Shown: positions 10,020-52,842 of the stretch, one piece after another | How positions within the stretch are numbered: the stretch's first letter is position 1 | How the letters are laid out: every line of letters starts with the position of its first letter | NCBI GenBank assembly: GCA_035623855.1 | Contig: DASPSQ010000005.1 | Span: forward strand, 2,093 to 66,092 | Direction: 5' to 3' | Source of the DNA: Thermoplasmata archaeon | GTDB lineage: Archaea; Thermoplasmatota; Thermoplasmata; Lutacidiplasmatales; UBA184 | Length of the DNA stretch: 64,000 nucleotides | Position numbers and translations under genes: made by a program | Notes under the pieces: model-generated | Told to the model about the DNA's origin: nothing | The model's database searches: none | What the model saw: only the letters and a program-made list of their open reading frames with translations

Positions 10020-10125
10020 GCCCAACCCATTGAGCCACCCCAAGGCTGGGGGGCCGGCTCCTCCCTTTCTCCCGCCGCATTAAGAGCCCGAGCGGCTGTC
10101 CGACGGGTGACGGGGGACCGATCCG

Positions 10126-10665: not shown

Positions 10666-10716
10666 GTTTCCTCCGGTACAACCGCCCACACTCCGTCCGG
10701 TCGCGTGGGCTCTCCT

Positions 10717-11172
10717 CTATCCGGAACGGGATGCCGGAGAGGGGGGAGGGGGGATTTCCCCCGGGTTGGTTTCCTTCTCGAACTCGTGCTCCTCCCACAT
10801 GTCGTAGGCGATCGCCACCGCGGCCATCTGGGTGATGATGGCCAGGGCGAACACCACGTGGAAGAACAGGATCACTTGGAAAATCGAGAGTCCAAGGATC
10901 GTAAAGGTCGAACCGACGTTGAACTCCAGCAGCAGTCCGAGGAACACCATCAGGATCGAAAACGCGAGGGTGACTCCTGCGATCCGTTTGACACGTCCAG
11001 GAACTCGGGTCACGACGAGATGTGTTCGGTTGGAATACGCAATCCCGACGATCAAGAGTCCCAGGACGAGGTGCACGTAGGGCACGATGAACGGCGGGTT
11101 CGGCCAGAGCCCCAGGAGGATTTCGAGAACAACGACCCAGATTGCGCCGTACAACGCGCTCCAGAGTCTCAT
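10717..11172 (-). CDS. Hypothetical integral membrane protein with 4 predicted TM helices.
   Basis: Four ~20-residue hydrophobic segments with short loops and an acidic, Pro-rich C-terminus. Confidence 0.5.
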   Translation of the reverse strand: MRLWSALYGAIWVVVLEILLGLWPNPPFIVPYVHLVLGLLIVGIAYSNRTHLVVTRVPGRVKRIAGVTLAFSILMVFLGLLLEFNVGSTFTILGLSIFQVILFFHVVFALAIITQMAAVAIAYDMWEEHEFEKETNPGEIPPPPSPASRSG

Positions 11173-25308: not shown

Positions 25309-28266
25309 TCAGCTGCGTCGAGGTCGACGCCGGGCGTCGCGGCTCGCCTCATCCGCCGACCCGTCGGGGGGCGCGATCGGATTCGGAGGATCCTCGCCGA
25401 GCGGGGCATACGCGACCGGGGTCCCGAGGTCGCTCGCGAGGAAGTCGTCCTGGGAGCGGTAGGAGTTCAAGCGCGACGGCCGCTGCGCGGGTCGCGGCCC
25501 CGTCAGGAGGTCGCCGGAGAGCTCTTCGGTTTCCTGGGAGAGCTGCTTCAACAGGTTGAGCCAGATCCGCCCCTGGTGGGCGATCGTCCCCTCGAGGCGG
25601 TCGCGCAGTTCGTTCGTCTGTTCGACGAGGTCGCCCTCGATCCGGCGCATCTCGCGGACCATCTCGCGGCGGATCTCCTTGAATCGAACCTCGGTCTCCT
25701 CAGAGATCGGTGCCCCCTTCTCGAGGTCGCCGACCTTGAGCCAGGTCTTCCGCAGGAGGGGGATCATCCGGTCGCTGAGGACCTGGATCCGTCGGTCGAG
25801 ATCCTCGAGGTCAGAGCGCAACCCGTTCTCGACCCGCTGGAGGTCAGCTTCCCGCTGGGCGAGTCGGGACTCGACGGTCTCGACACGGAGGAGGCCATCG
25901 TCCTGCGCCGCGCGCAGGCGGTTCTCCGCCTCCGCGATCTCCTTCGTCAGCGCGAGCTGCTGATCGGCACGAGCCGAGGCCACCGCCGGCGCGATTCGCT
26001 CCTTGATCGCCGCGTCGAACCGGCTCGGATCGACGGTCTTCGCGAGGGTCTGCTCGACCTCGGTCCGGAGCCGAGCCAGGAGCTCGACGTACTTGTCCCG
26101 CTCCTTCTCCTGGTTTTCGTTGAGCTTCTGCTCCACGAAGGCCTGGAGCCGGACCTGGAGGCCCGCGAGTGCTTCGGTCTGGGCGACCGAGAGCTCCGCG
26201 ACGCGCGCCTCCCGCTCGACCCCCAGGCGCTTTTCGACGCCGTTGACCCGCTCGTCGAGCGCCGCGGACGACCTCGACTGCAGGTCCGTGACCGCGGCCT
26301 TCAGCCGGGTCTCGACGTCCTTCGTCCGGCCGTCCACGAGGATCCCGAGCCTCTGCTCCAGATCCCGAACGTCCTTCGTCCGGCGCTGCTCGATCTCGGC
26401 CGCGTGGGCCTTCAGGAGGTCCCTCACGCGGGCCTCGATCTCCTCCCGGAGAGCGGTCCCTTGCTCCTTCGTCTCCGCCAGCTCGACCTCGAGTTGGGCA
26501 GCGAGCGCGGTCCGGAGCTCGTCCTCCCCGTGAGCGAATCCCGCCTTCGCCTCGTCGATCGACTGGCGGAGCTCTTCGCGGAGTCGCGCCGACCAGGCCT
26601 CCGTGGCGGATTGGACGGCCTGTCGGCTCTTCTCCGTCACCTCGGCGAGGGTCGGGTCGAGCTGGGCGTGGAGGTTCTTCTCGACCTGAGCGGAGACCGT
26701 CCCGGGGTCCAGGACCGGCCGGGACTCGACGGCGGCGATCCGCGCCCCGACGTCCGCCTGGACGCCCAGCATCCCGCGAGCGGACTGCTCGGTAGCTTCC
26801 CGGATCTTCGTGTCGACCGTCGCGAGGAGGCGGGCATCCCGCTGGGCCGCCTCGGTGGGGTCGGCGACCGGTTTCGGGAGCTCGGCGAGTCGCTGATCGA
26901 GGATCCGTCGGATTCGCGCGTCGAGGTCCGCGTCCCCCACCGGCACCGGGGCAACTGCGGCGGCGACCGACGCAGATCCCTCCGGCGGAGGCGACCCCGT
27001 TCGCAGGGAATTGTCATCGCTCACCGAGAGCGGGACCCCTGGAGTGCTGGAGGCCGGCAGGGCGATGTCCACCGGGCGCTGGAGCCACGGTGGATGCTGC
27101 GTCGTTCCGGGCGACGGGGCCGGCCCGGAGATCGGCTCCGGAGGAAGGGGGGCCTCGATGGCTCGGGGGATGGGGATCGACGGCTGAGCCTGAAGGTACT
27201 CGTTCGCCCGCTTGACCGCCTCTCCCGACATCGGGACGGAGCGGCCCTTCGGCTTCACGAGCAAGAGAGCGGCGGTTTCCATCGCGGTCCCGATCCGCCA
27301 CATCTCCTTGCGCCGATCGCGCCCGCCCTGGCCCTCGGCGTCCTGGATCTCCGCCTGCATCCGGGTGCCTTCCACCGCGTCGACGCGACGGGAGACCTCG
27401 GAGATCTTGGGGTCCTGATGATCCCGAACGTACTGGAGGACGAGCGGGAGGCTCTCGCGGGACCGAGTGGGGGTCGGTTTCGTGAGATCCCGCAACATGA
27501 CGGGGGCGGACCCCCAACTGTCGAGTCGCTTCGAGTGCCGCTCGCCCTGCGCTTCGCCTTTCGGCACGCGCATAACGGCGAGCGCGAGCGGAATCTGCTC
27601 GGTGAACTCGTGCGGGTTCACCTTCGCCTCGGGCAGGAAATACGGGAAGACGAGGAACGCACTGAGCGCGATCAGCGAGGTCGGGAGGAGCCGCACCATG
27701 TCGAGGACCACCTGGCTCGCCGACTCCCACTGCTCGGCGGCGACGACGACGACGGGTTCGGTGGTCCCGCGGTGGAACAGGAACCCCTCTCCGATGGCCT
27801 GGTACACCGACGCGTCCGGTTCGGCGGTGACCCGCGGGGGGCCCGATTTCCCTCCCATGCTCGCATGGGCCCGAAGGACCGCGGGACCGAACTCCCCGCT
27901 CTCGACCAGGTCCGCGGTCGAGAAGACGAGCGTTTTCATTCCGAGCCGAGGTCGATCCTCGGTGGAGAGGAACATCCGTCCGATGCATGTGTACCGGCCA
28001 TTGGCCGCCGGGTAAAGGAACAGATTCGGGTAGTACGAGAGCGGCTGCGACGGATCCGGATCCCAATAGTCGTGGGTGTCGGCGACGTTAACCGTCAGGT
28101 TGCCGATCATCCGGATCGCCTCCAGAGTCTCACGGCGCCCCGGGAATTCCTCGGGGATCGTCGTGTACCCCGGGCTTTCGGCCTCGTTGTCGACCTGGCG
28201 GCACCAGACGACGGAGATCGGGGCGAGGCCCGCGAGTGGCGCGCTCGCGGGTACCGCCGTCGACAT
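25309..28266 (-). CDS. Giant coiled-coil protein (985 aa). It has an N-terminal ~330-aa globular domain, a Pro-rich linker and a ~550-aa Ala/Glu/Arg/Leu-rich coiled-coil region.
   Basis: There are long heptad-like stretches (e.g. EELRQSIDEAKAGF…LEVELAETKEQGTALREEIEARVRDLLKAHAAEIEQRR…) and the linker PSIPIPRAIEAPLPPEPISGPAPSPGTT. The ATG is 4 nt after the upstream GTPase stop. Confidence 0.6.
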   Translation of the reverse strand: MSTAVPASAPLAGLAPISVVWCRQVDNEAESPGYTTIPEEFPGRRETLEAIRMIGNLTVNVADTHDYWDPDPSQPLSYYPNLFLYPAANGRYTCIGRMFLSTEDRPRLGMKTLVFSTADLVESGEFGPAVLRAHASMGGKSGPPRVTAEPDASVYQAIGEGFLFHRGTTEPVVVVAAEQWESASQVVLDMVRLLPTSLIALSAFLVFPYFLPEAKVNPHEFTEQIPLALAVMRVPKGEAQGERHSKRLDSWGSAPVMLRDLTKPTPTRSRESLPLVLQYVRDHQDPKISEVSRRVDAVEGTRMQAEIQDAEGQGGRDRRKEMWRIGTAMETAALLLVKPKGRSVPMSGEAVKRANEYLQAQPSIPIPRAIEAPLPPEPISGPAPSPGTTQHPPWLQRPVDIALPASSTPGVPLSVSDDNSLRTGSPPPEGSASVAAAVAPVPVGDADLDARIRRILDQRLAELPKPVADPTEAAQRDARLLATVDTKIREATEQSARGMLGVQADVGARIAAVESRPVLDPGTVSAQVEKNLHAQLDPTLAEVTEKSRQAVQSATEAWSARLREELRQSIDEAKAGFAHGEDELRTALAAQLEVELAETKEQGTALREEIEARVRDLLKAHAAEIEQRRTKDVRDLEQRLGILVDGRTKDVETRLKAAVTDLQSRSSAALDERVNGVEKRLGVEREARVAELSVAQTEALAGLQVRLQAFVEQKLNENQEKERDKYVELLARLRTEVEQTLAKTVDPSRFDAAIKERIAPAVASARADQQLALTKEIAEAENRLRAAQDDGLLRVETVESRLAQREADLQRVENGLRSDLEDLDRRIQVLSDRMIPLLRKTWLKVGDLEKGAPISEETEVRFKEIRREMVREMRRIEGDLVEQTNELRDRLEGTIAHQGRIWLNLLKQLSQETEELSGDLLTGPRPAQRPSRLNSYRSQDDFLASDLGTPVAYAPLGEDPPNPIAPPDGSADEASRDARRRPRRS

Positions 28267-28269
28267 CGC

Positions 28270-29436
28270 TTACTCCCCCTTGGTCGCGCGTCGTTCGAGA
28301 ACCCGCTCGCACGCGCGTGCGAGCGGAAGGGTGGTGTTGACCATGACCGGGACTCCCAGCGTCTGCGTCCCCACGTTCGGCGCTTCCTCTCCGGTCTCTC
28401 CGATGAACAGGGGGTGCCCTTCCCCGGTCGAAACGGCGCTCGACACGAGGAAGACGTCCTCCTTCATCGAGATTCCCCGGCCTTCCTGCGCGACCAGGAT
28501 CGTCCCCATCCCCGCTCCGTCCCGGCGCAGGAGAAAATCGACGGGGTCGAACGCGCTCCGGTAGGCGCGCTCGCGGATCGATTGCTCGATCTCGGAGTAG
28601 AACTCCTTCAGTTTGTCGGCCTTCGATACCGCGATCACGAGCGGGAGGTTCCGGGACTTCGCGTATCGGAAGACGCCGCGGGCGAGGTTCACCTGCTGGG
28701 CCTGATCCCGCAGGGATGGAAGCCCGGGGGAAAGGAGGAGGATCAGCGCGTCCGCGCCCGTGACGAACCGGCCGAGGAGGGTCAGTCCGCGCCGCCAGAG
28801 ATCCCGTCGGTCGGGGCGCCAGGAATCGAAGTGTGGAATCACCCGGCACGTCTTCTCGAGGACCTCCTCGTCCGGGGTCGACAGCCAGAGCCGATCGTAT
28901 GTGAAGTAGTCGGCGATGATCCCACCGGCCTCGTCGATCGTTTGCAGTTCCATGGGGCGGGAGCCGATCTCCCCGTTCGCCGCCCCATAGCGGAACCGCA
29001 TCTTCATCTCGACGAACTGATTGAATTTCGTCGGGAGAGGGTACTTCGTCAGGATCCCCTGGTCCTCGCGCCCAGCGCTCAGCTCGACCCAGAGCTTGCG
29101 GCGGTCCTCCATCGGGCGGTTGACGTAGTACCGGGTCGTTGTCTCGAGGCTTCCCTCGGGATCGGTCGGATCGGTGGTTTCGTACGTCGTCTCCTCGAGC
29201 GCGACGTCGTTCTCGAGGTCCCCGTAGAGCGGAAGGGTTCCGTTGTCCGCGCGCGACGGGATGTACAGGATCGGGAGATTCAATCCGAAATGTCCGGAAA
29301 GGAACCGAAAGTAAGTGGTCTTTCCCGACGCAGGGATGCCCACGACGGCCACGCGCGCGGAATCGCCGGACGGCTTCGCCTCACGCTTCGTCCCGGCTGC
29401 CCGACGTGTGCGGGTCGTGACCTTGACCTCGGGCAT
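28270..29436 (-). CDS. P-loop NTPase, putative GTPase.
   Basis: Walker A VAVVGIPASGKTTYF is present, and the candidate G4-like motif VSKADKL suggests guanine specificity. I recognise no close family. It is coupled to the vWA gene upstream and the coiled-coil gene downstream. Confidence 0.55.
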   Translation of the reverse strand: MPEVKVTTRTRRAAGTKREAKPSGDSARVAVVGIPASGKTTYFRFLSGHFGLNLPILYIPSRADNGTLPLYGDLENDVALEETTYETTDPTDPEGSLETTTRYYVNRPMEDRRKLWVELSAGREDQGILTKYPLPTKFNQFVEMKMRFRYGAANGEIGSRPMELQTIDEAGGIIADYFTYDRLWLSTPDEEVLEKTCRVIPHFDSWRPDRRDLWRRGLTLLGRFVTGADALILLLSPGLPSLRDQAQQVNLARGVFRYAKSRNLPLVIAVSKADKLKEFYSEIEQSIRERAYRSAFDPVDFLLRRDGAGMGTILVAQEGRGISMKEDVFLVSSAVSTGEGHPLFIGETGEEAPNVGTQTLGVPVMVNTTLPLARACERVLERRATKGE

Positions 29437-29448
29437 TTGGATCGACTC

Positions 29449-30957
29449 CTACCGCATCTCCGCTAGGCAGATCTCGATGAAATCCAGCGCGCCCTCGACC
29501 ACGGGGCCACCGGAGGCGAGCTCGAGGCGCGCATCCTGCAGGAGCCCGAAGATCTCCTCGACCGCGGCCTCGTGCTTGAGGGCCGCATCCTGAAGGTCGC
29601 CCTCCCCCGCGAGCCGCGTGAGCTGGTACGTCCCGCGAAGTTCCATGAGCTTGTCGAACAGGTCCATCAGGCGTTCCCGCGTCGTGGCATCACTTTGGCC
29701 CAACCCATGCTCGGTATTATCGATGAACTTAACGAGTGTCTCGGTCTCCTTGTCGTTCTGCATCCGGGCCTGAAGCATGGCAAGGCGCCTCACGATCGGC
29801 CCCTGGGACGGCTCGGGTAGCTTTTCTGCCTCCGCCCAGGCCTGAAGGAGAGCTCGCGCGGCCTCCACGACCGCGCGGCGCGCGAATTGTACGCGCGCTT
29901 CCCAGTAGAGACGGGTGACGGGTGGGAGCACGGCCTGCGACCTCGAGAGGAGTTCCAACGCGTGGTCGTACTCCCCCCGGACGTAGGCCTCGACGACCTC
30001 GCCGAGGGGGCCATAACGCTCTCGCAGGTAGGCCGGGGCACTCGCCGGCGTCCCTGACACCACGTCGACCTCGATTTCGGGAGCCTCCCGGTAGGCCGCC
30101 TCCGCCGCGGGACGCGGGGCGATGACCGCCGCACCCCGAATCCGCGAGACCGTCGCGTGTTGCTGCGGCTCTTTCAGCGCTCGGGCCGCGCTCGCGGCAC
30201 GGCGCGCGAGCTCCTCCGGGTGGAGCTCCTCGATCGGCTGATCCCCCTCGTACCCGACGTCCACGAACGCGTGGACCATCTGGGCGAAGAGCGCGGAACC
30301 AGTCGTGACCTCTTGGAAGCTGAACGGGGCCGGGACTCCGAGCAGCTGGGCGCGATCGGTGAGCTGCGCGAGGAATTGGTTCATGTGCCCGGCGTCGACG
30401 CCCTTGTCCCGTTCGTCGCCGTTTCCAATCCCGATCAGGCGGAAGGTCAGACGAGAGTTCGCGGGCAGTATGTACGGGATGAGGTCGATCTTACCGTTGG
30501 GCAGCGGAGCGTGGGAGGAGTTGCGGACGTCGAAGCGCTGGGATGCGTTGTCCCACCCGTCCGTGACGAGGACGAGGTTTCCCCGAACTCCTTCCACCCC
30601 CATCCGGAGAAGGTCGGCGCCCACGGCGATCGCGTCCCAGATCGCGGACCGGCCGCTCGGCGTGAGGAGGCTGATGAGGTTCTCGATGTACGGGAGGTTC
30701 TCCTTGTGGATTTCTCCCAGCGGGACCGGGACGCGGACCGTCTCGGTGAATGTGACGAGGCCGAACGGGTTGCCGGAGGTCGAGGCATCCTGAAGGATTC
30801 GGAACACCGCAGTTCGGGCGACTTCGATCTTCTGACGCTCCGGGGAGCCCGGTTGCGGCTCCGGCAGCGGAGCGAGCATGCTCTTCGAGAGATCGAGGAT
30901 CAGGACGTTCCGCTCCCGTTCGGGACCTGTCGTGGGTGAAGTAGAATCTTGAAGCAT
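29449..30957 (-). CDS. von Willebrand factor type A (vWA) domain protein with a C-terminal all-helical domain.
   Basis: MIDAS motif DLSKS (VLILDLSKSM), conserved LVTDGWDN and a Thr/Ser MIDAS partner. About 250 aa of helical region (TPR-like) follow. Confidence 0.65.
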   Translation of the reverse strand: MLQDSTSPTTGPERERNVLILDLSKSMLAPLPEPQPGSPERQKIEVARTAVFRILQDASTSGNPFGLVTFTETVRVPVPLGEIHKENLPYIENLISLLTPSGRSAIWDAIAVGADLLRMGVEGVRGNLVLVTDGWDNASQRFDVRNSSHAPLPNGKIDLIPYILPANSRLTFRLIGIGNGDERDKGVDAGHMNQFLAQLTDRAQLLGVPAPFSFQEVTTGSALFAQMVHAFVDVGYEGDQPIEELHPEELARRAASAARALKEPQQHATVSRIRGAAVIAPRPAAEAAYREAPEIEVDVVSGTPASAPAYLRERYGPLGEVVEAYVRGEYDHALELLSRSQAVLPPVTRLYWEARVQFARRAVVEAARALLQAWAEAEKLPEPSQGPIVRRLAMLQARMQNDKETETLVKFIDNTEHGLGQSDATTRERLMDLFDKLMELRGTYQLTRLAGEGDLQDAALKHEAAVEEIFGLLQDARLELASGGPVVEGALDFIEICLAEMR

Positions 30958-33111: not shown

Positions 33112-33567
33112 CTAGAGATACTTGGCGAGTTCGGGCCGGTTCTCCGCGAGTCGCTTGAGAGCGTCCCGGGAGACCGTCATGAGGAGCTTCTCTCCGGCGG
33201 GGCTCAGTCGTCGTCCTTGCGTCTTGTACGGTTGGACCAGTCCGGCCTTCTCCAACTGGTGGATGATCTCGCGAAGGACCGCACGGGAACCGGTCCGGGC
33301 ATGATACGGCGCGCTCCCGCGGTCCCGTTTGCCACCGTAGTCCGCGCTGAGCCGAGAGACCCCGACGTGACCGCGGAGGTAGATCTTCCGCAGCACCGAA
33401 GCGCTCCGCAGGTACCACCAGTCCGTCTGCACCGGGGCGCGTTGCTTGTGGACCCCCGTTTTGACGAACGTTGCCCACGGAGGGGGTGCAACCGCTTGCC
33501 GACTCCTCAGTTCTGTAGCAAGCTGGGGGAGCAGAATCCCCGGTGGAACGTCGTTTGGGTGGCTCAT
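33112..33567 (-). CDS. rps19e: 30S ribosomal protein S19e.
   Basis: PPWATFVKTGVHKQRAPVQTDWWYLRSASVLRKIYLRGHVGVSRL…YGGKRDRGSAPYHARTGSRAVLREIIHQLEKAGLV is an S19e hallmark. The ATG at 33567 gives 151 aa. Confidence 0.85.
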   Translation of the reverse strand: MSHPNDVPPGILLPQLATELRSRQAVAPPPWATFVKTGVHKQRAPVQTDWWYLRSASVLRKIYLRGHVGVSRLSADYGGKRDRGSAPYHARTGSRAVLREIIHQLEKAGLVQPYKTQGRRLSPAGEKLLMTVSRDALKRLAENRPELAKYL

Positions 33568-33593
33568 GGAGCGGCGCGGCCACCCGGTGAGCC

Positions 33594-33602
33594 TATTTAA
33601 AA
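33594..33602 (-). promoter_or_regulatory. TATA box (TTTTAAATA on the minus strand) 27-35 nt upstream of the S19e ATG; promoter of the S19e–PDCD5–L39e–L31e–aIF6 operon.
   Basis: gcctatttaaaaccgg is the only AT-rich element in the 268-bp divergent intergenic region. The spacing fits a leaderless mRNA. Confidence 0.45.
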
Positions 33603-33835
33603 CCGGACCCTGGCGTTCGGCGAGCCGGGCGAGGAAGGACTGGCCGGGTCCCGGATCCTCGGAATCCCGGAGTGCGGCTCGAGGCCCGACGTCGGGAATC
33701 CAGGTACACCGTGCGTCGGGGTCGGCAGGGGCGGCCGAGCCCTTGCGTCTCTCCTCCAGGTGGCGACCCGGGGCCATCGCCTTAACTACCGGCCGTTCGT
33801 ATCGATTTGGCAACCCGCGTCCGGGCCGGTCCACG

Positions 33836-34444
33836 ATGACGGTTGCCGCTCTCATACTCGCTGCCGGCGAATCCAGCCGGTTCGAGGGCTATCCCAAAGC
33901 CCTCTTGACCGCCGGGCGTCGGTCCGCCGTCCGCCGACTCGCCGAGATCGCGATCGCTCAGCAATTCGACCCGATCGCGGTCGTTGTCGGGGCCCACAAG
34001 GGTCCGATTACCCACGAGCTTCGCGATCTCCCCGTGGAGATCGTGGATGCGGAGCAGTGGTACGAGGGCCGGACCGCGTCGATTCAGGCCGGGATCTCTG
34101 CCCTTCCTGACGACCGGGACATTCTCCTCTGGCCGATCGACCACCCGTTCGTCTCTCCCCGGACGGTTGAGACGCTCACGGCGCTCCTTTCCACCGATAT
34201 GATCGCCGTCTGGTACATCCCGACGTACGAGGGTAATGGCGGTCACCCGGTCCTCTGGCGGTCGGTGATCCGCCCGGACGTCCTCGACCTTCGGCCCGAC
34301 GCACCGGTTCGCTCGCTCCTTCCGGAATTTGGCCCCCAGGTCCGACGCGTACCCGTCGAGGATCCGGGAGTCGTCGCGAACGTCGACACCCCCGACGCCT
34401 ACCGTGACGCGTACGAGACCTGGCTCGCCCGAGGGGAGGAGTGA
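33836..34444 (+). CDS. MobA-like nucleotidyltransferase (MocA-type molybdenum cofactor cytidylyltransferase).
   Basis: AALILAAGESSRFEGYPKALL matches the MobA/MocA N-terminal NTP-transferase motif. It is the first gene of the molybdo-hydroxylase operon. Confidence 0.65.
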   Translation: MTVAALILAAGESSRFEGYPKALLTAGRRSAVRRLAEIAIAQQFDPIAVVVGAHKGPITHELRDLPVEIVDAEQWYEGRTASIQAGISALPDDRDILLWPIDHPFVSPRTVETLTALLSTDMIAVWYIPTYEGNGGHPVLWRSVIRPDVLDLRPDAPVRSLLPEFGPQVRRVPVEDPGVVANVDTPDAYRDAYETWLARGEE

Positions 34445-35289
34445 TGGACCGCCGTCTGACACGCGAAGCATTACGACTGATGGAATCCCACCAGCCGTTC
34501 GTGCGAGCGGCGGTGGTGAAGGCGGTCGGCTCGGTTCCCGGAAAGGTCGGCGCGACAATGATCGTGCGGTCGGACGGCTCGTATCTCGGGACGGTCGGAG
34601 GCGCCGCTCTCGAGGAGCAGGTCAAGTCACTCGCGATGGAGGCGTTCGAGACCCATCGGGGCGACCTCCACCATTTCGACCTCCAGGCATGGGCCCCGGG
34701 GGGCCTCCCCAGTCTCTGCGGCGGCTCGGTGGAGATCGCCGTCGAGTACGTTCCCGCCCGTCCGAACCTCCTTCTCTGGGGAGGCGGTCATGTTGCCCAG
34801 GCGCTCGCCGCGATCCTCCCGACCCTGGAGTTCGACTACAGCGTCGCGGACGATCGCCCGGAGTGGATCGGTGCGGATCGGTTCCCCCACGCCGACCGCC
34901 GGGAGGCGGTCTCCCCGGCTCGCATCTGGGAGATCTTCGATCCTCCGACGTTCACGCACCTCTACCTCCTCGGGTACGACGCAGCGAAGGACCTCGAGGT
35001 CCTTGCGAGCGCGATCGAGCGATTCCCCAACGCGATCGGACTGATCGCGAGCGCATCGAAACGCGAGCACATGTTCCAAGAGCTTCGCTCGCGAGGGGTA
35101 TCGCGGGAATCGCTCACCCGGGTCCGATCTCCCGTGGGGCTCGAGATCGGGGCCGAGACACCGGCCGAGATCGCTGTGAGCATCGTGGCCGAGATCGTAG
35201 CCGGGATGCACCCGGCCAAGGTACGTAGTCGTGCGCGTGGGGAATCCTCCACCCCCCGGGAGACCGATGCCGTCCCGCGATCTCCTTAA
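34441..35289 (+). CDS. XdhC/CoxI family molybdoenzyme maturation factor.
   Basis: XdhC N-terminal domain plus Rossmann-like C-terminal domain (LLLWGGGHVAQALAAI). The start overlaps the MocA stop. Confidence 0.7.
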   Translation: MMDRRLTREALRLMESHQPFVRAAVVKAVGSVPGKVGATMIVRSDGSYLGTVGGAALEEQVKSLAMEAFETHRGDLHHFDLQAWAPGGLPSLCGGSVEIAVEYVPARPNLLLWGGGHVAQALAAILPTLEFDYSVADDRPEWIGADRFPHADRREAVSPARIWEIFDPPTFTHLYLLGYDAAKDLEVLASAIERFPNAIGLIASASKREHMFQELRSRGVSRESLTRVRSPVGLEIGAETPAEIAVSIVAEIVAGMHPAKVRSRARGESSTPRETDAVPRSP

Positions 35290-35740
35290 CCTCCGGCTGA
35301 ACGGCCATCCCGTCTCGGTGGCGTGCGAGCCCGCACGGATCCTTCTGGACCTACTGAGAGAGGATCTCGGCCTCACCGGCACGAAGCGGGGTTGCGACCT
35401 CGGGACATGCGGGTGCTGCACCGTCCTCCTCGATGGGCGTCCGACCCTGAGCTGTCTCACGCTCGCGCGTCTCACGGACGGCCGCGCGATCGAGACGATC
35501 GAGGGCCTGACCCCTCCCCGGGGACTTTCGCCGGTGCAACGCGCGTTCGTCGAGCGTGGAGCGACCCAGTGCGGGTTTTGCACCCCGGGCTTCGTGGTGA
35601 CCGCGACGGCCCTCCTTTCCCGAGAGCCGCATCCGAGTCGCTCCGAGATCGAGCGCGCGATCGCGGGGAACCTCTGCCGGTGCACGGGGTACACCAAGAT
35701 CATTGAGGCGATCGAGGCCGCTTCGCGGGAGACCCCCTGA
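35267..35740 (+). CDS. Xanthine dehydrogenase family small subunit, [2Fe-2S]-binding (CoxS/CutS-like).
   Basis: Plant-type ferredoxin motif CDLGTCGCC and a second-cluster motif CGFCTPG…CRCTGY. ATG at 35267 (MPSRDLLNLRLNGHPV). Confidence 0.85.
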   Translation: MPSRDLLNLRLNGHPVSVACEPARILLDLLREDLGLTGTKRGCDLGTCGCCTVLLDGRPTLSCLTLARLTDGRAIETIEGLTPPRGLSPVQRAFVERGATQCGFCTPGFVVTATALLSREPHPSRSEIERAIAGNLCRCTGYTKIIEAIEAASRETP

Positions 35741-38061
35741 TGGCTTCCACGGCCGGCCCGTATCGCCTCCTCGGCGGATCGATCCCGTACGTGGAGGGAC
35801 CCCTCAAGGTCACTGGCCGGGCCGAGTACACGGACGACATCCGCCGGCCGGGGATGCTCGTCGGCCGTCTCCTTCGCAGCCCGTGGCCCCATGCACGCCT
35901 CACGTCCCTCGACGTGAGCGCGGCCCGAGCGTGTCCGGGGGTGTTTGCCGTGCTGACGGGTGAACGGTACCCGATCCCGTTCGGGGTCCTCCCGATCACG
36001 CACGACGAGACCGCGATCGCGGTCGGGAAGGCGCGATACATCGGCGACATCATCGCCGCCGTCGCCGCGCAGGACGAGCGGACCGCCGAGAAGGCCCTTG
36101 CGCTCATCCGGGCGGAGGTCGAGCCGCTCCCGGAGTACTCCGATCCGCGGGTCGGGACGTCGAAGGTCGCCGAGCCAATCCACTCTCGCGGCCTTCAGGG
36201 GTCGAACATTCAGAAGGAGGTCGTCCAGCACTTCGGCGACGTCGACGCGGCGTTCGCGCGCGCTAGGTTCACCGCCCGGGTCCGTGCGACGTTCGCGGGA
36301 GTGACCCACGCGTTCACGGAGCCGATGGCGACCGTTGCCGAGGCGACGCCGGATGGTCGGCTCACCGTCTGGAGCGCCACCCAGGTCCCCCACTACCTCC
36401 ATCGGGCGCTTTCGGAGGTCCTGGGGCTCCCCCTCCACCGGATCCGGGTCATCAAGCCCGAGGTCGGCGGGGGGTTCGGCGGGAAATCCGATCCTCTTCC
36501 GCACGAGATCGTCTGCGCCGCGCTCGCGATCGAGACCGGCCGGCCGGTCAAGATCCTGTTCGACCGCGAGGACGTCTTCTACACGAACCACGGCCGCCAT
36601 CCGACCCAGAACGACGTGCGCATCGCCGCGGACGCGGAGGGGAACCTCCTCGGGTACGACATCGAGGCGCTGATCGATGGCGGCGCGTGGAGCTCGTTCG
36701 GAACCGTTACCACGTACTACAACGGCGTCCTCGCGATCGGGCCATATCGCGTGCCCAACTTCCGCTACAAGGGCCGTCGGGTCTACACGACGAAGCCCCC
36801 CTCTGGGGCGATGCGCGCCCACGGGGGCACGAACATCCGCTACTCGATCGAGGTCGCGATCGACGAGCTCGCCGAGGCGATCGGCGTCGATCCGTTCGAC
36901 CTTCGCGCGAAGAACGCCCTCCCCCCGAACTCGAAGACGGTCAACGAGTTCCGGATCACCTCGACGTCGTTCCTCAAGTGCCTCTCCGCCGCCCGGTCGG
37001 CGAGCGGCTGGGCGGAGAAGTTCCGACGGCTGCCGTTCGGTCGAGGCGTCGGACTCGGCTGCGGCTTCTACATCTCGGGATCGAACAGCCCGATCCACTT
37101 CACGCCGAAGATGCCCCAGTCGACCGTCCACCTCAAGGTCGACATGGACGGCGGCATCGCCGTCCACTCGATGCAGGCGGATATCGGGCAGGGGTCGAAC
37201 ACGCTACTCGCGGCGATCATCGCGGAGGTGCTCGGGGTCGACCTCGAGCGCGTGCACGTCCAGCGCGTCGATTCCGATGTGAGCCCGATCGACGTCGGGT
37301 CGTATTCGAGCCGAGTGACGTTCATGATGGGGAACGCGGCCCGTGCGGCGGCGGAGGAGCTCAAGGGCCGGCTGATCGCCGCGGCAGCGGAGATCCTCGA
37401 GCGCCCCCCCGGCGAGATCGAGGTGGGCCAGGAGCGTTTCCACCTCGTGGGTGCGCCGGACCGCTCGGTCTCGTTCCTCGACACGCTCCATCGGGCGATG
37501 GAGCGGTCCGGTGCCCTCACCGCGTCCGGCTCGTTCCAGACCCAGCCGATCGGAGGGACGTTCAAGGGGGCCCGGGCCGGCACGGCGCCGGCGTACTCGT
37601 TCGCAGCGTACGTCGCCGAGGTCGAGGTCGATGTCGAGACCGGCGAATTCCACGTCCCCAAGATTTGGGCGGCGTTCGATTGCGGTCGGCCCTTGAACCG
37701 GCTGGCGGTCGAGGGGCAGATCCAGGGGTCGATCCACATGGGCCTCGGCCAGGTGATGGGCGAGTCGATGAACTACCGGGGTTCGCGCCTGTTCAACCCG
37801 TCGCTTCTGGAGTACAAGATCCCGATGCCCCAGCAGATGCCGGAGGTCGAAATCCTGCTCGTGGGGGACGACGACCCCGAGGGACCGTTTGGGGCGAAGG
37901 AGGCCGGCGAGGGGCCGCTGATCGCCACGCTCCCGGCGGTGGGGAATGCCCTCTACGATGCGATCGGAGTGCGGTTCACCGAGCTCCCGATCACCCCGGA
38001 TCGCGTGGTGCGAGCCCTCGAAGTGCGGCTGAAGGAGGGGCGTCCCTGGAAGGGCGCCTAG
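35740..38061 (+). CDS. Xanthine dehydrogenase family molybdopterin-binding large subunit (CoxL/aldehyde oxidoreductase-like).
   Basis: Typical MoCo-subunit motifs (GGGFGGK, MPQSTVHLKVD…ADIGQGSNT, FGAKEAGEGPL). Its ATG shares a nucleotide with the small-subunit stop (TGATG). Confidence 0.85.
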   Translation: MASTAGPYRLLGGSIPYVEGPLKVTGRAEYTDDIRRPGMLVGRLLRSPWPHARLTSLDVSAARACPGVFAVLTGERYPIPFGVLPITHDETAIAVGKARYIGDIIAAVAAQDERTAEKALALIRAEVEPLPEYSDPRVGTSKVAEPIHSRGLQGSNIQKEVVQHFGDVDAAFARARFTARVRATFAGVTHAFTEPMATVAEATPDGRLTVWSATQVPHYLHRALSEVLGLPLHRIRVIKPEVGGGFGGKSDPLPHEIVCAALAIETGRPVKILFDREDVFYTNHGRHPTQNDVRIAADAEGNLLGYDIEALIDGGAWSSFGTVTTYYNGVLAIGPYRVPNFRYKGRRVYTTKPPSGAMRAHGGTNIRYSIEVAIDELAEAIGVDPFDLRAKNALPPNSKTVNEFRITSTSFLKCLSAARSASGWAEKFRRLPFGRGVGLGCGFYISGSNSPIHFTPKMPQSTVHLKVDMDGGIAVHSMQADIGQGSNTLLAAIIAEVLGVDLERVHVQRVDSDVSPIDVGSYSSRVTFMMGNAARAAAEELKGRLIAAAAEILERPPGEIEVGQERFHLVGAPDRSVSFLDTLHRAMERSGALTASGSFQTQPIGGTFKGARAGTAPAYSFAAYVAEVEVDVETGEFHVPKIWAAFDCGRPLNRLAVEGQIQGSIHMGLGQVMGESMNYRGSRLFNPSLLEYKIPMPQQMPEVEILLVGDDDPEGPFGAKEAGEGPLIATLPAVGNALYDAIGVRFTELPITPDRVVRALEVRLKEGRPWKGA

Positions 38062-38067
38062 CGGACG

Positions 38068-39051
38068 ATGCACCTGGATCCGTTCGAGCTCCACCAGCCG
38101 ACGACCGTCGACGAGACGGTCCGGATCGCCGGCGAGCTCGCCGGTCGGTTCGACTTCCTCGCCGGGGGGACCGACCTCTTACCGAATTACAAAATGCACA
38201 TTAATCTCAAACCCCACCTCGTCGCCCTCGACCGGGTCCCCGAGCTCTCCGGTCACTCGCTCACCCGCCTCGGGGCGATGGAACGGCTCGGGCGGCTCGA
38301 AGACGACCCCGCGTTCCTCGCGGCATATCCGGGCATCGCCGACGCGCTCGCGGACCTTGCGACCCCTCTCGTTCGCGCCAGCGGAACGGTCGGGGGGAAC
38401 CTCCTGGTCGAGACGCGGTGCTTCTTCTTCAACCAGAGCTACTTCTGGCGCGCGAGCCTCGGGTTCTGTCTCAAGGCGGACGGGGACCGCTGCCACGTCG
38501 TGCCGCAGAAAGAACGGTGCTACGCGACGTTCTCCGGGGATCTCGCGCCGCCGCTCCTTGCGCTCGACGCGACGGTCGAGCTGGCCGGCCGCGATGGACG
38601 GCGCACCATCCCGCTCGCCGATCTCTATGATGTCGGGGGCGACGGGATCCACCGTCTCCACCTTCGCCCGGGCGAGCTCCTCGTCTCCGTCGGGTTCCCT
38701 CGAAGTGCTGCAGGGCAGCGGGCCCGGTACAAGAAGCTCCGTGTCCGGCCGTCGTTCGACTTCCCCGAACTCGGGGTTGCCGTCGCGGGTCATTGGACCG
38801 CGGACCGTGTCGACCACCTCCGCCTCGCGATCGGCGGAATCGAGACGTACCCCCATCGGTTTGATGAGCTCACGGATGCTCTAGTAGGTGGCCCGCTCTC
38901 GGAGGCGAAGGTCTCTCTGCTCGCGGAGGAAGTCACGAGGCGGCTCCGCCCCGTCCACAACACGTTCCTCCCTCCGGACTATCGGCGCCGGATGATTGGG
39001 GTCCTCGTGCGTCGTGCGCTCATGGAGTCTCGGGAGGGCCGGACCTCATGA
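38068..39051 (+). CDS. Xanthine dehydrogenase family FAD-binding medium subunit (CoxM-like) with a 4-Cys [4Fe-4S]-type insertion.
   Basis: FAD-binding fold (FLAGGTDLLP, GTVGGNL) plus the insertion ETRC-x15-C-x7-C-x8-C (residues ~118-151). Confidence 0.8.
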   Translation: MHLDPFELHQPTTVDETVRIAGELAGRFDFLAGGTDLLPNYKMHINLKPHLVALDRVPELSGHSLTRLGAMERLGRLEDDPAFLAAYPGIADALADLATPLVRASGTVGGNLLVETRCFFFNQSYFWRASLGFCLKADGDRCHVVPQKERCYATFSGDLAPPLLALDATVELAGRDGRRTIPLADLYDVGGDGIHRLHLRPGELLVSVGFPRSAAGQRARYKKLRVRPSFDFPELGVAVAGHWTADRVDHLRLAIGGIETYPHRFDELTDALVGGPLSEAKVSLLAEEVTRRLRPVHNTFLPPDYRRRMIGVLVRRALMESREGRTS

Positions 39052-39524
39052 CCCGACCACCCGAGTTCGCTCTCGTGCCGATCCGGGACCTCCATGCGCA
39101 CGAGCAATTCCAGGACGACTGCGTCGTCGCGCTCATGGAGGAGCTCCGCCGCGCCGGCGTCATGAACGAGCCGATCTGGGTCTCGCGCGACTCGCTCGTG
39201 ATCCTGAACGGTCACCACCGGGTCGAGGCGATGCGGCGGATGGGGGCCAGCCGAATGCCCGCGTGGCTCTTCGAGTACGAGTCCGAAGTTGTGAGTCTGG
39301 AGCCGTGGCGCCCGGGGCCTCCCATCCCGAAGGCCGAGGTCATCCGTCGTGGGGTCAGTGGCCATCTCTTCCCGCCGAAGACGACGCGCCACAAGATCCA
39401 GGTCGAGCTTCCGCCGCACCCCACCTCGCTTGCCGACCTTCTCGCGCCGGAGCGCGGACTGGTCTACCCAATGGGTCCTCGGTCGTCCCGGCGGCGGAGC
39501 CCCAGGGCGTCGCGCTCGGAATAG
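39048..39524 (+). CDS. ParB/sulfiredoxin-like N-terminal-domain protein, translationally coupled to the FAD subunit gene.
   Basis: ILNGHHRVEAMRRMG resembles the ParB-N/Srx fold core. The ATGA overlap with the upstream stop supports expression. The C-terminal ~60 nt overlap the convergent purN. Confidence 0.45.
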   Translation: MTRPPEFALVPIRDLHAHEQFQDDCVVALMEELRRAGVMNEPIWVSRDSLVILNGHHRVEAMRRMGASRMPAWLFEYESEVVSLEPWRPGPPIPKAEVIRRGVSGHLFPPKTTRHKIQVELPPHPTSLADLLAPERGLVYPMGPRSSRRRSPRASRSE

Positions 39525-52066: not shown

Positions 52067-52842
52067 GCGCCTCCGACCTCCTTTCGGAGCACCGCGTGCC
52101 GACCGGGATCCCCGGCCTCGACCGGATGCTCGGGGGTGGGTTGGTCGCGGGCCGGCCGTACCTCGTGACGGGAGGCACCGGCAGCGGCAAGACCCTCCTC
52201 GGGCTCACGTTCCTTCTGGAGGGTCTGAAGCGAGGGGAGGAGGTCCTCCTTGTCGCGGTCGACGAGCCCCCGAGCGAGATCATCGAGAACGTCCAGTCGT
52301 TCGGCTGGGACCTCTCTTCGGTGAAAACCCTCGAGGCGAATCCCGGCACGCATGCGATCAAGCGGAACGTCGCGGTGCAGGAGATCCGCACGATGACCGA
52401 CCTGAAGTCGATGCGCGACCTCTCCCAGGAAGTAAAGCGGCCGGCCGACCTCGAGGACATCTCGATCCAGTCGATCCAGCTCAAGCTGCGTCAGCAGATG
52501 ACGACCCTGCCGTTCCGCCGGGTCCTGGTCGATTCGATCACGTCGGTCCGCCGGTTCGCGATCAAATCGTCGGTCGACCCTCAGGCCGAACGGACCGAGA
52601 TCCAGTCACTGCTCCGATTCCTCTCGGAGGCGGGGGTGACGACCCTCATCACCGCGACCCCGAGCGACCCGGCGTTGCTGACGCCCGAGGAGATCCTCAC
52701 GCGGGGCGAGATCCTCCTCACCCGCAAGTGGGTCGGAGACCGCTCGGTACGCCAGCTCAAGATCGTACGGATGCGCGGCTGCGCCCACGATCCGGAGCGT
52801 CGCCCGTTCGTCATCACCCCGCAGGGCATCGTCGTCGCCTAA
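52063..52842 (+). CDS. KaiC-like RecA-superfamily ATPase (single domain, 259 aa).
   Basis: GIPGLDRMLGGGLVAGRPYLVTGGTGSGKTLLGLTFL, Walker B VLVDSITS. The GTG start overlaps the upstream stop (GTGA). Confidence 0.7.
   Translation: MSASDLLSEHRVPTGIPGLDRMLGGGLVAGRPYLVTGGTGSGKTLLGLTFLLEGLKRGEEVLLVAVDEPPSEIIENVQSFGWDLSSVKTLEANPGTHAIKRNVAVQEIRTMTDLKSMRDLSQEVKRPADLEDISIQSIQLKLRQQMTTLPFRRVLVDSITSVRRFAIKSSVDPQAERTEIQSLLRFLSEAGVTTLITATPSDPALLTPEEILTRGEILLTRKWVGDRSVRQLKIVRMRGCAHDPERRPFVITPQGIVVA

What the first reader, a model, noticed from the sequence alone, without database searches (positions are those of the whole stretch)
38419..38520. FAD subunit of the molybdo-hydroxylase carries a C-x15-C-x7-C-x8-C insertion matching the [4Fe-4S] loop of 4-hydroxybenzoyl-CoA reductase HcrB
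Ordinary CoxM/XdhB/CutB FAD subunits lack cysteines here. To my recollection, the spacing ETRC-(15)-C-(7)-C-(8)-C reproduces the spacing of the four ligands of the extra [4Fe-4S] cluster in Thauera HcrB (Cys122/138/146/155). That extra cluster is what lets 4-HBCR run in the reductive direction using low-potential ferredoxin. It implies this archaeal enzyme belongs to the 4-HBCR-like subclass (possibly a reductase or an enzyme wired to ferredoxin) rather than a classic xanthine or CO dehydrogenase.
Basis: partly seen in the sequence, partly recalled or inferred. Interest (0 to 1): 0.7.

Follow-up and report, generated by a model that had tools for sequence, protein, structure and literature searches.

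The report
HcrB-type iron-sulfur loop in archaeal molybdoenzyme
The four-cysteine loop is real and matches the extra iron-sulfur cluster site of 4-hydroxybenzoyl-CoA reductase, but this archaeal enzyme sits in a large, widespread, uncharacterised sister group of that reductase, so its substrate and direction of reaction remain open.

Summary
Observation confirmed. The FAD subunit (38068..39051, +, 327 aa) has only four cysteines: C118-x15-C134-x7-C142-x8-C151, at exactly 38419..38520. They align without gaps to Cys122/138/146/155 of Thauera HcrB (PDB 1rm6_B, E 5.7e-59). They lie in a ~40-residue insertion that CO-dehydrogenase flavoproteins lack, and they are invariant in 38 diverse homologues and all 120 close ones. 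An AlphaFold model (pLDDT 93) superposes on 1rm6_B (TM 0.91).

Interpretation partly supported. The enzyme belongs to the 4-HBCR-like lineage. The Mo pocket is HcrA-like (Tyr at the XO Arg880 site, His at the Phe914 site, no Glu802, no CODH VAYRCSFR).

It is not a demonstrable 4-HBCR. All three subunits score below NCBIfam equivalog cut-offs. The Mo subunit is 44% identical to HcrA and falls outside the bona fide clade, next to Poseidoniales and Planctomycetota homologues. No CoA ligase, benzoyl-CoA reductase or ferredoxin gene lies in the 64 kb.

The cluster does not fix the reaction direction. PaoB, which has a differently spaced four-Cys motif, carries a [4Fe-4S] at the same site yet oxidises aldehydes; the 5y6q_B aldehyde-oxidase subunit has a similarly spaced loop. 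The reductive Ucdh lacks the loop.

The loop is common (at least 599 species genomes), and JGI already annotates these proteins as HcrB. This is a new member of a known kind, of moderate interest.

The parts
33836..34444 (+). MocA-like molybdenum cofactor cytidylyltransferase. The likely start is the ATG at 33836 inside the longer ORF 33446..34444. It makes the MCD form of Moco.
   Evidence: PF12804 E 4.6e-31. TIGR03310 MocA E 3e-26, below cut-off. The orthologous gene is called as 202 aa in L002 and L004.
34441..35289 (+). XdhC-family Moco insertion chaperone
   Evidence: PF02625 + PF13478. Conserved at this position in all Thermoplasmata-clade loci.
35231..35740 (+). [quoted passage not shown] The start is uncertain: GTG 35231 or ATG 35267.
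   Evidence: PF01799 E 6.8e-32 and PF00111. Best NCBIfam hit is TIGR03193, 4-HBCR gamma, at 183 bits against a cut-off of 257.8.
35740..38061 (+). Molybdopterin (MCD) catalytic subunit, HcrA-like, 773 aa
   Evidence: PF01315 / PF02738 / PF20256. 1rm6_A E 8e-191. TIGR03194 805 bits against a cut-off of 994.55. 43.8% identity to HcrA. Pocket residues Q215, F320, V323, Y327, R359, H361, Y522, S523, E724.
38068..39051 (+). FAD subunit, HcrB-like, 327 aa
   Evidence: PF00941 + PF03450. 1rm6_B E 5.7e-59. TIGR03195 270.8 bits against a cut-off of 404.55. AF2 model pLDDT 93.4. Foldseek top hit 1rm6_B, TM 0.91, rmsd 1.8.
38404..38553 (+). Insertion of about 40 residues (residues ~113-162) relative to CO-dehydrogenase flavoproteins. 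It carries the cluster loop.
   Evidence: The CutM alignment is interrupted between query 112 and 163, against CutM 116 to 129. pLDDT is 85-94 over this stretch.
38419..38520 (+). Four-cysteine motif C118-x15-C134-x7-C142-x8-C151, the predicted [4Fe-4S] ligands
   Evidence: Sequence. Aligned to HcrB C122/138/146/155. Invariant in alignment A1. These are the only Cys in the protein.
39048..39524 (+). 158-aa SerK-like / ParB-Srx-fold protein. Its start overlaps the FAD-subunit stop (ATGA). It is the sixth gene of the operon in this archaeal clade only; role unknown.
   Evidence: NF053625 SerK E 6e-14, far below cut-off. PDB 5x0b free serine kinase E 3.5e-9. PF02195 ParB_N on the orthologues. Present in L002-L014 and absent elsewhere.

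Best explanation
The window encodes a six-gene operon: mocA, xdhC, small [2Fe-2S] subunit, Mo subunit, FAD subunit and a SerK-like gene. [quoted passage not shown]

Shown: the FAD subunit carries the HcrB-type 40-residue insertion, and its four invariant cysteines are positioned as the [4Fe-4S] ligands of Thauera HcrB. The Mo pocket has the HcrA signature.

Inferred: the loop binds a [4Fe-4S] cluster that acts as the docking and electron port for a small one-electron carrier, most plausibly ferredoxin. This extends the usual wire to carrier <-> [4Fe-4S] <-> FAD <-> [2Fe-2S] <-> [2Fe-2S] <-> Mo-MCD <-> substrate.

My best guess rests on two points. The two nearest characterised relatives, 4-HBCR and Ucdh, are both reductive phenol dehydroxylases. 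The loop is of the HcrB type and not the PaoB type. I therefore favour electron flow inward, with the enzyme reductively removing a hydroxyl group from an activated aromatic substrate.

That substrate is probably not 4-hydroxybenzoyl-CoA itself. The enzyme belongs to a distinct, uncharacterised clade shared with Poseidoniales, Planctomycetota and others.
For: The loop is confirmed and aligns to the HcrB Cys. The Cys are invariant across 38 diverse sequences, as are the FAD motifs G33-G34-T35-D36 and T107-G109-G110-N111. All 120 close homologues and 134 of 150 distant representatives keep a four-Cys loop. The AF2 model is confident through the loop and superposes on 1rm6_B at TM 0.91 and 1.8 A. 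The three subunits best-match the 4-HBCR models and 1rm6. Gene order S-L-M with xdhC and mocA matches the bona fide Sedimenticola hcr locus. Pocket residues are shared with 25 bona fide HcrA sequences: Q, Y at the XO R880 site, R, H at the XO F914 site, Y-S, E. The loop spacing differs from PaoB. Literature: the HcrB loop binds the 4Fe-4S cluster (PMC11760930), 4-HBCR takes reduced ferredoxin, and 4-HBCR and Ucdh are the only known reductive XO-family dehydroxylases (PMC12771579).
Against: The direction of electron flow and the substrate are untested. A [4Fe-4S] at this site also occurs in the aldehyde-oxidising PaoABC (PMC13404670), and a similarly spaced four-Cys loop is present in the Methylobacillus aldehyde oxidase subunit 5y6q_B. 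Ucdh is reductive without the loop (PMC11760930). No ferredoxin gene lies in the operon or the window. Relatives are common in organisms from oxic habitats such as surface-ocean Poseidoniales and soil Acidobacteriaceae (PMC6461757), whereas Thauera 4-HBCR is oxygen-sensitive (PMC12771579). Cluster binding is inferred from sequence and a model; no coordinates were available to measure Cys geometry.
Confidence: 0.45

Rival explanations
1. It is a genuine, merely divergent, archaeal 4-hydroxybenzoyl-CoA reductase. It would feed benzoyl-CoA into an anaerobic aromatic degradation pathway, using reduced ferredoxin exactly as in Thauera.
For: The best hit of every subunit is 4-HBCR. The Cys spacing is identical. 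The core pocket residues are identical to 25 bona fide HcrA sequences. JGI/KEGG annotate the family as 4-HBCR beta. bcrABCD genes have been reported in one Thermoplasmatota order, Ca. Yaplasmales (PMC9239135). A bona fide hcr locus in Sedimenticola also lacks a nearby CoA ligase, so missing neighbours are weak evidence against.
Against: All three subunits fall below the NCBIfam equivalog cut-offs: 183 against 257.8, 805 against 994.55, and 270.8 against 404.55. The controls HcrB, P0361 and L073 pass. Identity to HcrA is only 43.8%, against 52-58% to Poseidoniales and Planctomycetota homologues. The bona fide clade is monophyletic and excludes the window enzyme. There are 62 clade-specific switches at positions conserved in true HcrA, several next to the pocket: Y319F, L325Y, H443F, T448S, K452I, Q404F, N518L. 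No AMP-dependent ligase, BCR or ferredoxin gene occurs in 64 kb, and the flanks are housekeeping genes syntenic across the clade. NCBI names the homologues only 'FAD binding domain-containing protein'.
Confidence: 0.12
2. It is an oxidative hydroxylase or aldehyde oxidoreductase acting on an unknown heterocycle, aromatic compound or aldehyde. The [4Fe-4S] would be the electron exit to ferredoxin or another acceptor, working like PaoABC rather than like 4-HBCR.
For: PaoB carries a [4Fe-4S] at the same site of the FAD subunit in an oxidising enzyme, and 5y6q_B has a similarly spaced four-Cys loop (PMC13404670). Most XO-family enzymes are oxidative (PMC12771579). The clade is abundant in oxic habitats (PMC6461757). 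The catalytic Glu and Gln of hydroxylases are conserved as E724 and Q215. Archaea commonly use ferredoxin as an acceptor (own knowledge).
Against: The loop is HcrB-type (C-x15-C-x7-C-x8-C), not PaoB-type (C-x9-C-x8-C-x18-C). The FAD subunit is much closer to HcrB (E 5.7e-59) than to 5y6q_B (1.3e-27) or PaoB (6.9e-22). The Mo subunit is much closer to HcrA (8e-191) than to PaoC (8e-62). The pocket residues are those of HcrA.
Confidence: 0.3
3. The cysteine loop is a structural relic, a disulfide or Zn site or a cluster with no redox role, and electrons enter or leave at FAD as in ordinary family members.
For: No direct spectroscopic evidence exists here. Some relatives have altered loops: 16 of 150 representatives show no recognisable motif, and the Poseidoniales variant has extra Cys.
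Against: The four Cys are strictly invariant across sequences only 32-68% identical to the query, while the surrounding residues vary. The loop is retained in at least 599 species genomes. The same loop binds a 4Fe-4S cluster in HcrB (PMC11760930).
Confidence: 0.05

Closest known systems
4-hydroxybenzoyl-CoA reductase HcrCAB of Thauera aromatica (PDB 1rm6/1sb3; HbaBCD of Rhodopseudomonas palustris)
   Same: Three subunits in the same gene order, with xdhC and mocA alongside. The FAD subunit has the same ~40-residue insertion and identical C-x15-C-x7-C-x8-C spacing. The model superposes at TM 0.91. The Mo pocket shares Gln, Tyr (XO R880 site), Arg, His (XO F914 site), Tyr-Ser and Glu.
   Different: Identity is 43.8% (alpha) and about 37-45% (beta). 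All three subunits score below the equivalog cut-offs. The enzyme falls in a separate clade. There are 62 switched conserved positions, including loss of Lys452 and His443 near the pocket. The host is an archaeon, the flanking genes are housekeeping, and no aromatic-pathway genes are in view.
Uncharacterised HcrCAB-like enzymes of Poseidoniales (Marine Group II), Planctomycetota, KSB1 and other Thermoplasmatota
   Same: These are the closest relatives outside the window's own clade, at 52-58% identity in the Mo subunit. They have the same S-L-M order, the same pocket signature, and a four-Cys loop at the same place.
   Different: Poseidoniales have a variant loop with a 3-residue insertion and one or two extra Cys. 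They lack the SerK-like sixth gene, and their xdhC and mocA lie several kb away. None has been characterised.
E. coli periplasmic aldehyde oxidoreductase PaoABC (PDB 5g5g) and Methylobacillus aldehyde oxidase (PDB 5y6q)
   Same: XO-family heterotrimers in which PaoB carries an extra four-Cys [4Fe-4S] motif at the equivalent insertion, and 5y6q_B has a similarly spaced four-Cys loop there (PMC13404670).
   Different: The Cys spacing is C-x9-C-x8-C-x18-C in PaoB. Similarity is much weaker (E 1e-22 to 1e-27). These enzymes oxidise aldehydes, and PaoABC is periplasmic.
Urolithin C dehydroxylase Ucdh/UcdCFO of Enterocloster bolteae
   Same: An XO-family MCD enzyme, the second known reductive phenol dehydroxylase. 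4-HBCR is its closest characterised relative (PMC12771579).
   Different: Its FAD subunit lacks the [4Fe-4S] loop and NADH is the donor (PMC11760930, PMC12771579). This shows that the loop is not required for reductive chemistry.

Membership tests
4-hydroxybenzoyl-CoA reductase (HcrCAB/HbaBCD) | Three subunits of the XO family (2x[2Fe-2S], Mo-pterin, FAD) encoded in gamma-alpha-beta order | tested here: met
   Pfam domains and gene order 35231..39051. The same order occurs in the bona fide Sedimenticola locus.
4-hydroxybenzoyl-CoA reductase (HcrCAB/HbaBCD) | About 40-residue insertion in the beta subunit with four Cys ligands of an extra [4Fe-4S] (HcrB Cys122/138/146/155) | tested here: met
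   C118/134/142/151 align ungapped to HcrB C122/138/146/155 and are invariant in homologues. The model matches 1rm6_B. Actual cluster binding was not measured.
4-hydroxybenzoyl-CoA reductase (HcrCAB/HbaBCD) | Scores above the curated equivalog cut-offs of TIGR03193/03194/03195 | tested here: not met
   183 against 257.8, 805 against 994.55, and 270.8 against 404.55. Positive controls: HcrB 549.5, P0361 1291.8, L073 1145/435.9.
4-hydroxybenzoyl-CoA reductase (HcrCAB/HbaBCD) | Mo subunit groups with characterised and named HcrA sequences | tested here: not met
   The bona fide clade (75-94% identity to Thauera HcrA) is monophyletic and excludes the window enzyme, which is sister to the Poseidoniales/Planctomycetota group. 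NJ tree; the deep split has only 58/100 bootstrap support.
4-hydroxybenzoyl-CoA reductase (HcrCAB/HbaBCD) | HcrA-type substrate pocket and channel | tested here: inconclusive
   The core residues are identical (Q, Y, R, H, Y-S, E). However, 62 conserved positions are switched, several adjacent to pocket motifs. The list of channel residues in the 2004 structure paper could not be read.
4-hydroxybenzoyl-CoA reductase (HcrCAB/HbaBCD) | MCD form of the cofactor | tested here: met
   Indirect evidence only: a MocA-like cytidylyltransferase and XdhC are encoded in the operon.
4-hydroxybenzoyl-CoA reductase (HcrCAB/HbaBCD) | Genomic company of 4-hydroxybenzoate-CoA ligase and benzoyl-CoA reductase | tested here: inconclusive
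   None found among the window ORFs scanned with Pfam or in the conserved flanks. The rest of the genome is unseen, and a bona fide locus also lacks them within 10 kb.
4-hydroxybenzoyl-CoA reductase (HcrCAB/HbaBCD) | [quoted passage not shown] | not testable with these tools
   Requires enzymology.
PaoABC-type aldehyde oxidoreductases | PaoB-type four-Cys loop (C-x9-C-x8-C-x18-C) and close similarity to PaoA/B/C | tested here: not met
   Different spacing. PaoB E 6.9e-22 and PaoC E 8e-62, against HcrB 5.7e-59 and HcrA 8e-191.
Xanthine dehydrogenase/oxidase | Glu802 and Arg880 (bovine numbering) in the purine pocket | tested here: not met
   Ser250 follows GGGFGGK where XO has Glu802. Tyr327 occupies the Arg880 column. 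Numbering was verified against PDB 2ckj/1fo4.
Mo-Cu carbon monoxide dehydrogenase (form I CoxL) | VAYRCSFR active-site loop (motif from own knowledge) | tested here: not met
   The corresponding stretch reads PPSGAMRAHGG with no Cys. CODH models score far below cut-off.

The most novel reading that the evidence does not exclude
The Thermoplasmata/Poseidoniales/Planctomycetota clade is a new functional class of XO-family enzyme. It would be a ferredoxin-linked molybdenum enzyme with the 4-HBCR wiring that acts on a non-CoA aromatic or other substrate in largely oxic-habitat heterotrophs. This would give abundant marine and soil archaea an unrecognised reductive (or ferredoxin-reducing) reaction. 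In the Thermoplasmata branch it would also have a dedicated SerK-like accessory protein.
Probability: 0.25. Interest if true: 0.6.

Novelty: new member of a known kind. Interest (0 to 1): 0.35.

Why it matters
The extra [4Fe-4S] loop of 4-HBCR is usually presented as a peculiarity of one anaerobic aromatic-degradation enzyme. Here it marks a large family of at least 599 species genomes and 469 clusters at 50% identity. That family reaches into globally abundant Marine Group II archaea and into soil Thermoplasmata and Acidobacteria, and none of these enzymes has been characterised.

Two practical consequences follow. First, KEGG-style annotation as '4-hydroxybenzoyl-CoA reductase' (K04107-9) is probably an over-call for this clade, and it is already being read as a marker of anaerobic aromatic degradation in soil metagenomes (bioRxiv 10.1101/2024.05.09.592449). 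Second, the clade is a defined target for finding further reductive, or ferredoxin-coupled, reactions in the xanthine oxidase family, which PMC12771579 explicitly expects to exist.

Tried and rejected
1. The 2004 4-HBCR structure paper is not held. I could not take the published list of channel and ligand residues. Instead I mapped pocket columns from XO residues, with numbering verified against PDB.
2. Gene neighbourhood gave no clue to the substrate. The window, close relatives and 80 genome loci clustered by neighbour families show only housekeeping or lineage-specific synteny. No ligase, BCR, ferredoxin or transporter is consistently linked.
3. A bona fide hcr locus used as a context control also lacks ligase and BCR nearby, so context cannot decide membership.
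4. Literature searches for this enzyme in Thermoplasmata or Marine Group II found no treatment of it.
5. Cys-Cys distances could not be measured, because model coordinates are not exposed. I relied on pLDDT and the Foldseek superposition.
6. CODH and XDH assignments were considered and rejected on active-site motifs and model scores.
7. The NJ tree gives only 58/100 support for the deepest split. I claim only that the bona fide clade excludes the window enzyme, not a precise topology.
8. The 'Verrucomicrobiales' (L053) and 'Salinimicrobium' (L079) loci share Marine Group II synteny. I treated them as probable mis-binned contigs, not as evidence of a wider host range.
Full report
**1. The observation**

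The ORF 38068..39051 (+) encodes a 327-residue protein with the two domains of a molybdo-hydroxylase flavoprotein, PF00941 and PF03450. These are the only four cysteines in the protein.

A phmmer search of all PDB chains puts the beta subunit of Thauera aromatica 4-hydroxybenzoyl-CoA reductase first (1rm6_B, E 5.7e-59). The alignment is ungapped through the loop. Counting along the printed alignment, the four cysteines fall on HcrB residues 122, 138, 146 and 155.

Alignments to CO-dehydrogenase flavoproteins (1ffu_C) break into two pieces, query 5-112 and 163-319 against CutM 5-116 and 129-280. The loop thus sits in an insertion of about 40 residues that ordinary family members lack.

**2. Is it more than chance?**

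I aligned 38 homologues that are 32-68% identical to the query, with a mean column identity of 44%. C118, C134, C142 and C151 are among only 16 invariant columns. The FAD-binding glycine motifs are also invariant.

- All 120 close homologues (72-100% identity) have the exact spacing.
- Of the 150 best representatives of 50%-identity clusters, 115 have the exact spacing and 19 a variant. The other 16 show no recognisable motif; at least some of these are short sequences.
- An AlphaFold2 model built on that alignment has mean pLDDT 93.4, and 85-94 over residues 111-160.
- Its best structural match in the PDB is 1rm6_B, with TM 0.91 and rmsd 1.8 A over the full length. The loop-less CO-dehydrogenase subunits come next at TMq about 0.80.

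I could not measure sulfur-sulfur distances because coordinates are not exposed.

**3. What surrounds it**

The FAD gene is the fifth gene of a compact operon:

- a MocA-like cytidylyltransferase (33836..34444)
- XdhC (34441..35289)
- a 773-residue molybdopterin subunit (35740..38061)
- the FAD subunit (38068..39051)
- a 158-residue ORF (39048..39524), whose start overlaps the FAD stop codon

The last product resembles the ParB/Srx-fold free serine kinase SerK.

The operon lies between ribosomal and translation genes (S19e, L31e, eIF6) on one side. On the other side are purN, TldD/PmbA, a methyltransferase and TFIIB. This arrangement is conserved in relatives on contigs of up to 686 kb.

I scanned the main ORFs of the 64-kb window against Pfam. 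I found no AMP-dependent CoA ligase, no benzoyl-CoA reductase component and no ferredoxin gene.

The homologues that carry an organism name are from 'Thermoplasmata archaeon' MAGs. The closest genome loci have soil or peat type sample names (SMAG, SPRUCE). The window is 67.4% G+C.

**4. Which enzyme is it?**

Each of the three subunits has a 4-HBCR model as its best NCBIfam hit, but each is below the curated equivalog cut-off:

| Subunit | Score (bits) | Cut-off (bits) |
|---|---|---|
| gamma | 183 | 257.8 |
| alpha | 805 | 994.55 |
| beta | 270.8 | 404.55 |

As controls, HcrB itself scores 549.5. A named Sedimenticola HcrA scores 1291.8. A Rhodospirillaceae pair passes both models. A Marine Group II pair fails in the same way as the window (825 and 247.7).

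The Mo subunit is 43.8% identical to Thauera HcrA. It is 52-58% identical to homologues from Poseidoniales, Planctomycetota, KSB1 and Polarisedimenticolia.

In a neighbour-joining tree rooted on human XOR, the sequences 75-94% identical to Thauera HcrA form a clade. Many of these are named 4-HBCR alpha by NCBI. The Rhodospirillaceae locus and an Acidobacteriaceae group join that clade. The window enzyme sits in a different clade of 61 tips, as sister to the Poseidoniales-dominated group. The bootstrap for the deep split is a modest 58/100.

**5. The active site**

I checked my recollection of the mammalian XOR sequence against PDB entries. This anchored bovine numbering for Gln767, Glu802, Leu873, Ser876, Arg880, Arg912, Phe914, Phe1009-Leu1014, Ala1078/1079 and Glu1261. 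I then read those columns in an alignment of 96 Mo subunits.

The window enzyme has Gln215, Phe320, Val323, Tyr327, Arg359, His361, Tyr522-Ser523 and Glu724. Thauera HcrA and all 24 other bona fide sequences have Gln, Tyr319, Ile322, Tyr326, Arg, His360, Tyr521-Ser522 and Glu726.

- The purine-binding pair of xanthine dehydrogenases is absent. Ser250 follows GGGFGGK where XO has Glu802, and Tyr327 stands in the Arg880 column.
- The stretch that would hold the CODH VAYRCSFR loop reads PPSGAMRAHGG.

There are also clade-specific differences. Of 462 columns conserved at 90% or more in bona fide HcrA, 179 are the same in the Thermoplasmata plus Poseidoniales group. Another 62 are switched to a different conserved residue. 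Several switches lie next to pocket motifs: Y319F, L325Y, Q404F, H443F, T448S, K452I and N518L. Replacing Lys, His and Gln by hydrophobic residues near the substrate channel is what one would expect if the CoA-thioester substrate were replaced by something else. This is an inference, not a test.

**6. Does the cluster tell us the direction of the reaction?**

No. The literature held here confirms that the HcrB loop binds a 4Fe-4S cluster (PMC11760930). It also confirms that 4-HBCR accepts reduced ferredoxin (PMC12771579). Three points weaken the link to direction:

- E. coli PaoB has a four-Cys [4Fe-4S] motif at the same insertion site and belongs to an aldehyde-oxidising enzyme. RefSeq calls it the 'FAD-binding Fe-S subunit' (PMC13404670). 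Its spacing is C119-x9-C129-x8-C138-x18-C157.
- The Methylobacillus aldehyde oxidase subunit 5y6q_B has a similarly spaced loop. I did not confirm cluster occupancy in 5y6q from any source held here.
- The second known reductive XO-family dehydroxylase, Ucdh, lacks the loop and uses NADH (PMC11760930, PMC12771579).

The exact HcrB spacing does place the window protein with HcrB and apart from PaoB.

**7. How common is it?**

Of 600 stretches, 599 encode relatives of the query. Among the 80 best loci are:

- Thermoplasmata (62-72% identity)
- about 45 Poseidoniales / Marine Group II genomes
- Planctomycetota, KSB1 and Acidobacteriaceae
- Gemmatimonadota and Pyrinomonadaceae

Of these 80 loci, 33 have the exact spacing. 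Another 45, all from Marine Group II type loci, have a variant with a three-residue insertion and one or two extra cysteines.

Two 'bacterial' loci (L053, L079) share Marine Group II synteny and are probably mis-binned.

The exhaustive profile search found 469 clusters at 50% identity with E<=1e-30. JGI already annotates the close homologues as '4-hydroxybenzoyl-CoA reductase subunit beta', while NCBI says only 'FAD binding domain-containing protein'. I found no paper that discusses the enzyme in Thermoplasmata or Marine Group II.

Marine Group II archaea dominate oxic surface waters (PMC6461757). This sits awkwardly with a role in the oxygen-sensitive anaerobic benzoyl-CoA pathway.

**8. Most likely mechanism**

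Shown: an MCD-type XO-family heterotrimer of the 4-HBCR lineage, with the HcrB-type four-Cys insertion under strong constraint.

Inferred: the loop holds a [4Fe-4S] cluster at the protein surface beside FAD. The cluster serves as the port for a one-electron carrier, most plausibly ferredoxin, which archaea use widely (own knowledge). The wire would then run carrier - [4Fe-4S] - FAD - [2Fe-2S] - [2Fe-2S] - Mo.

The two nearest characterised enzymes are both reductive phenol dehydroxylases, and the loop is of the HcrB type. I therefore favour inward electron flow and reductive dehydroxylation of an activated aromatic substrate other than 4-hydroxybenzoyl-CoA, with confidence about 0.45 for the whole statement. 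My confidence that a cluster is bound at all is higher, about 0.85.

The rivals are:

- an oxidative enzyme that uses the cluster as an exit (0.30)
- a true but divergent 4-HBCR (0.12)
- a vestigial loop (0.05)

**9. Verdict**

The subclass assignment is right. The functional inference about reductive direction is plausible but does not follow from the cluster alone. The feature is neither rare nor unannotated. It is a new member of a known kind.

The residual interest is that a very widespread archaeal and bacterial clade with 4-HBCR wiring has no known substrate, and that automatic '4-HBCR' labels on it are probably over-calls.

Noticed in passing
window 39048..39524 (+): A 158-aa SerK-like / ParB-Srx-fold ORF with a GHHR motif. 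Its ATG overlaps the FAD-subunit stop codon. It is conserved as the sixth operon gene in all Thermoplasmata-clade loci (46-64% identity) and is absent from the Poseidoniales and bacterial homologous operons. It could be an accessory or maturation factor; its role is unknown.
   Followed up: partly
L023-L079 (Poseidoniales loci), FAD gene around 10001..10980: Marine Group II FAD subunits carry a variant loop, RC-x15-C-HK[C/A]DC-GTxxDC-x9-C. It has a 3-residue insertion and one or two additional cysteines, so which four Cys ligate the cluster there is unclear.
   Followed up: partly
L053 (labelled Verrucomicrobiales) and L079 (labelled Salinimicrobium sp.): Both loci share the Marine Group II neighbour-gene clusters and have MGII-type loop sequences. 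They are probably mis-binned archaeal contigs in bacterial MAGs.
   Followed up: partly
window 25309..30957 (-): Three consecutive genes: a 985-aa and a 388-aa protein with no Pfam match, followed by a VWA-domain protein. The trio is syntenic in related Thermoplasmata contigs (L002, L004).
   Followed up: no
window 2969..8044: An aldehyde dehydrogenase (-) lies next to a divergently oriented pair: a Fer2_4 + Pyr_redox_2 + BFD fusion protein and a DAO-family FAD oxidoreductase. By my reading this layout resembles sarcosine/opine-oxidase or proline-dehydrogenase type systems.
   Followed up: no
window 49853..52842 (+): Two adjacent KaiC-family ATPase genes (737 aa and 259 aa), with stop and start overlapping.
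   Followed up: no
Poseidoniales loci, 7-10 kb downstream of the FAD gene (e.g. L032 17092..18192, L031 20261..20896, L052 9752..10615): Judged by eye from the sequences, and not tested against Pfam, the conserved neighbours look like shikimate-pathway enzymes: chorismate synthase, archaeal dehydroquinate synthase II and shikimate kinase. This is probably coincidental synteny, but they are aromatic-biosynthesis genes near a 4-HBCR-like operon.
   Followed up: no
annotation of homologues and bioRxiv 10.1101/2024.05.09.592449: The sources disagree: JGI names the family 4-HBCR subunit beta, while NCBI gives only a generic FAD-binding name. Soil metagenome work already reads the corresponding KO (K04108) as evidence of anaerobic aromatic degradation, which this clade may inflate.
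   Followed up: partly
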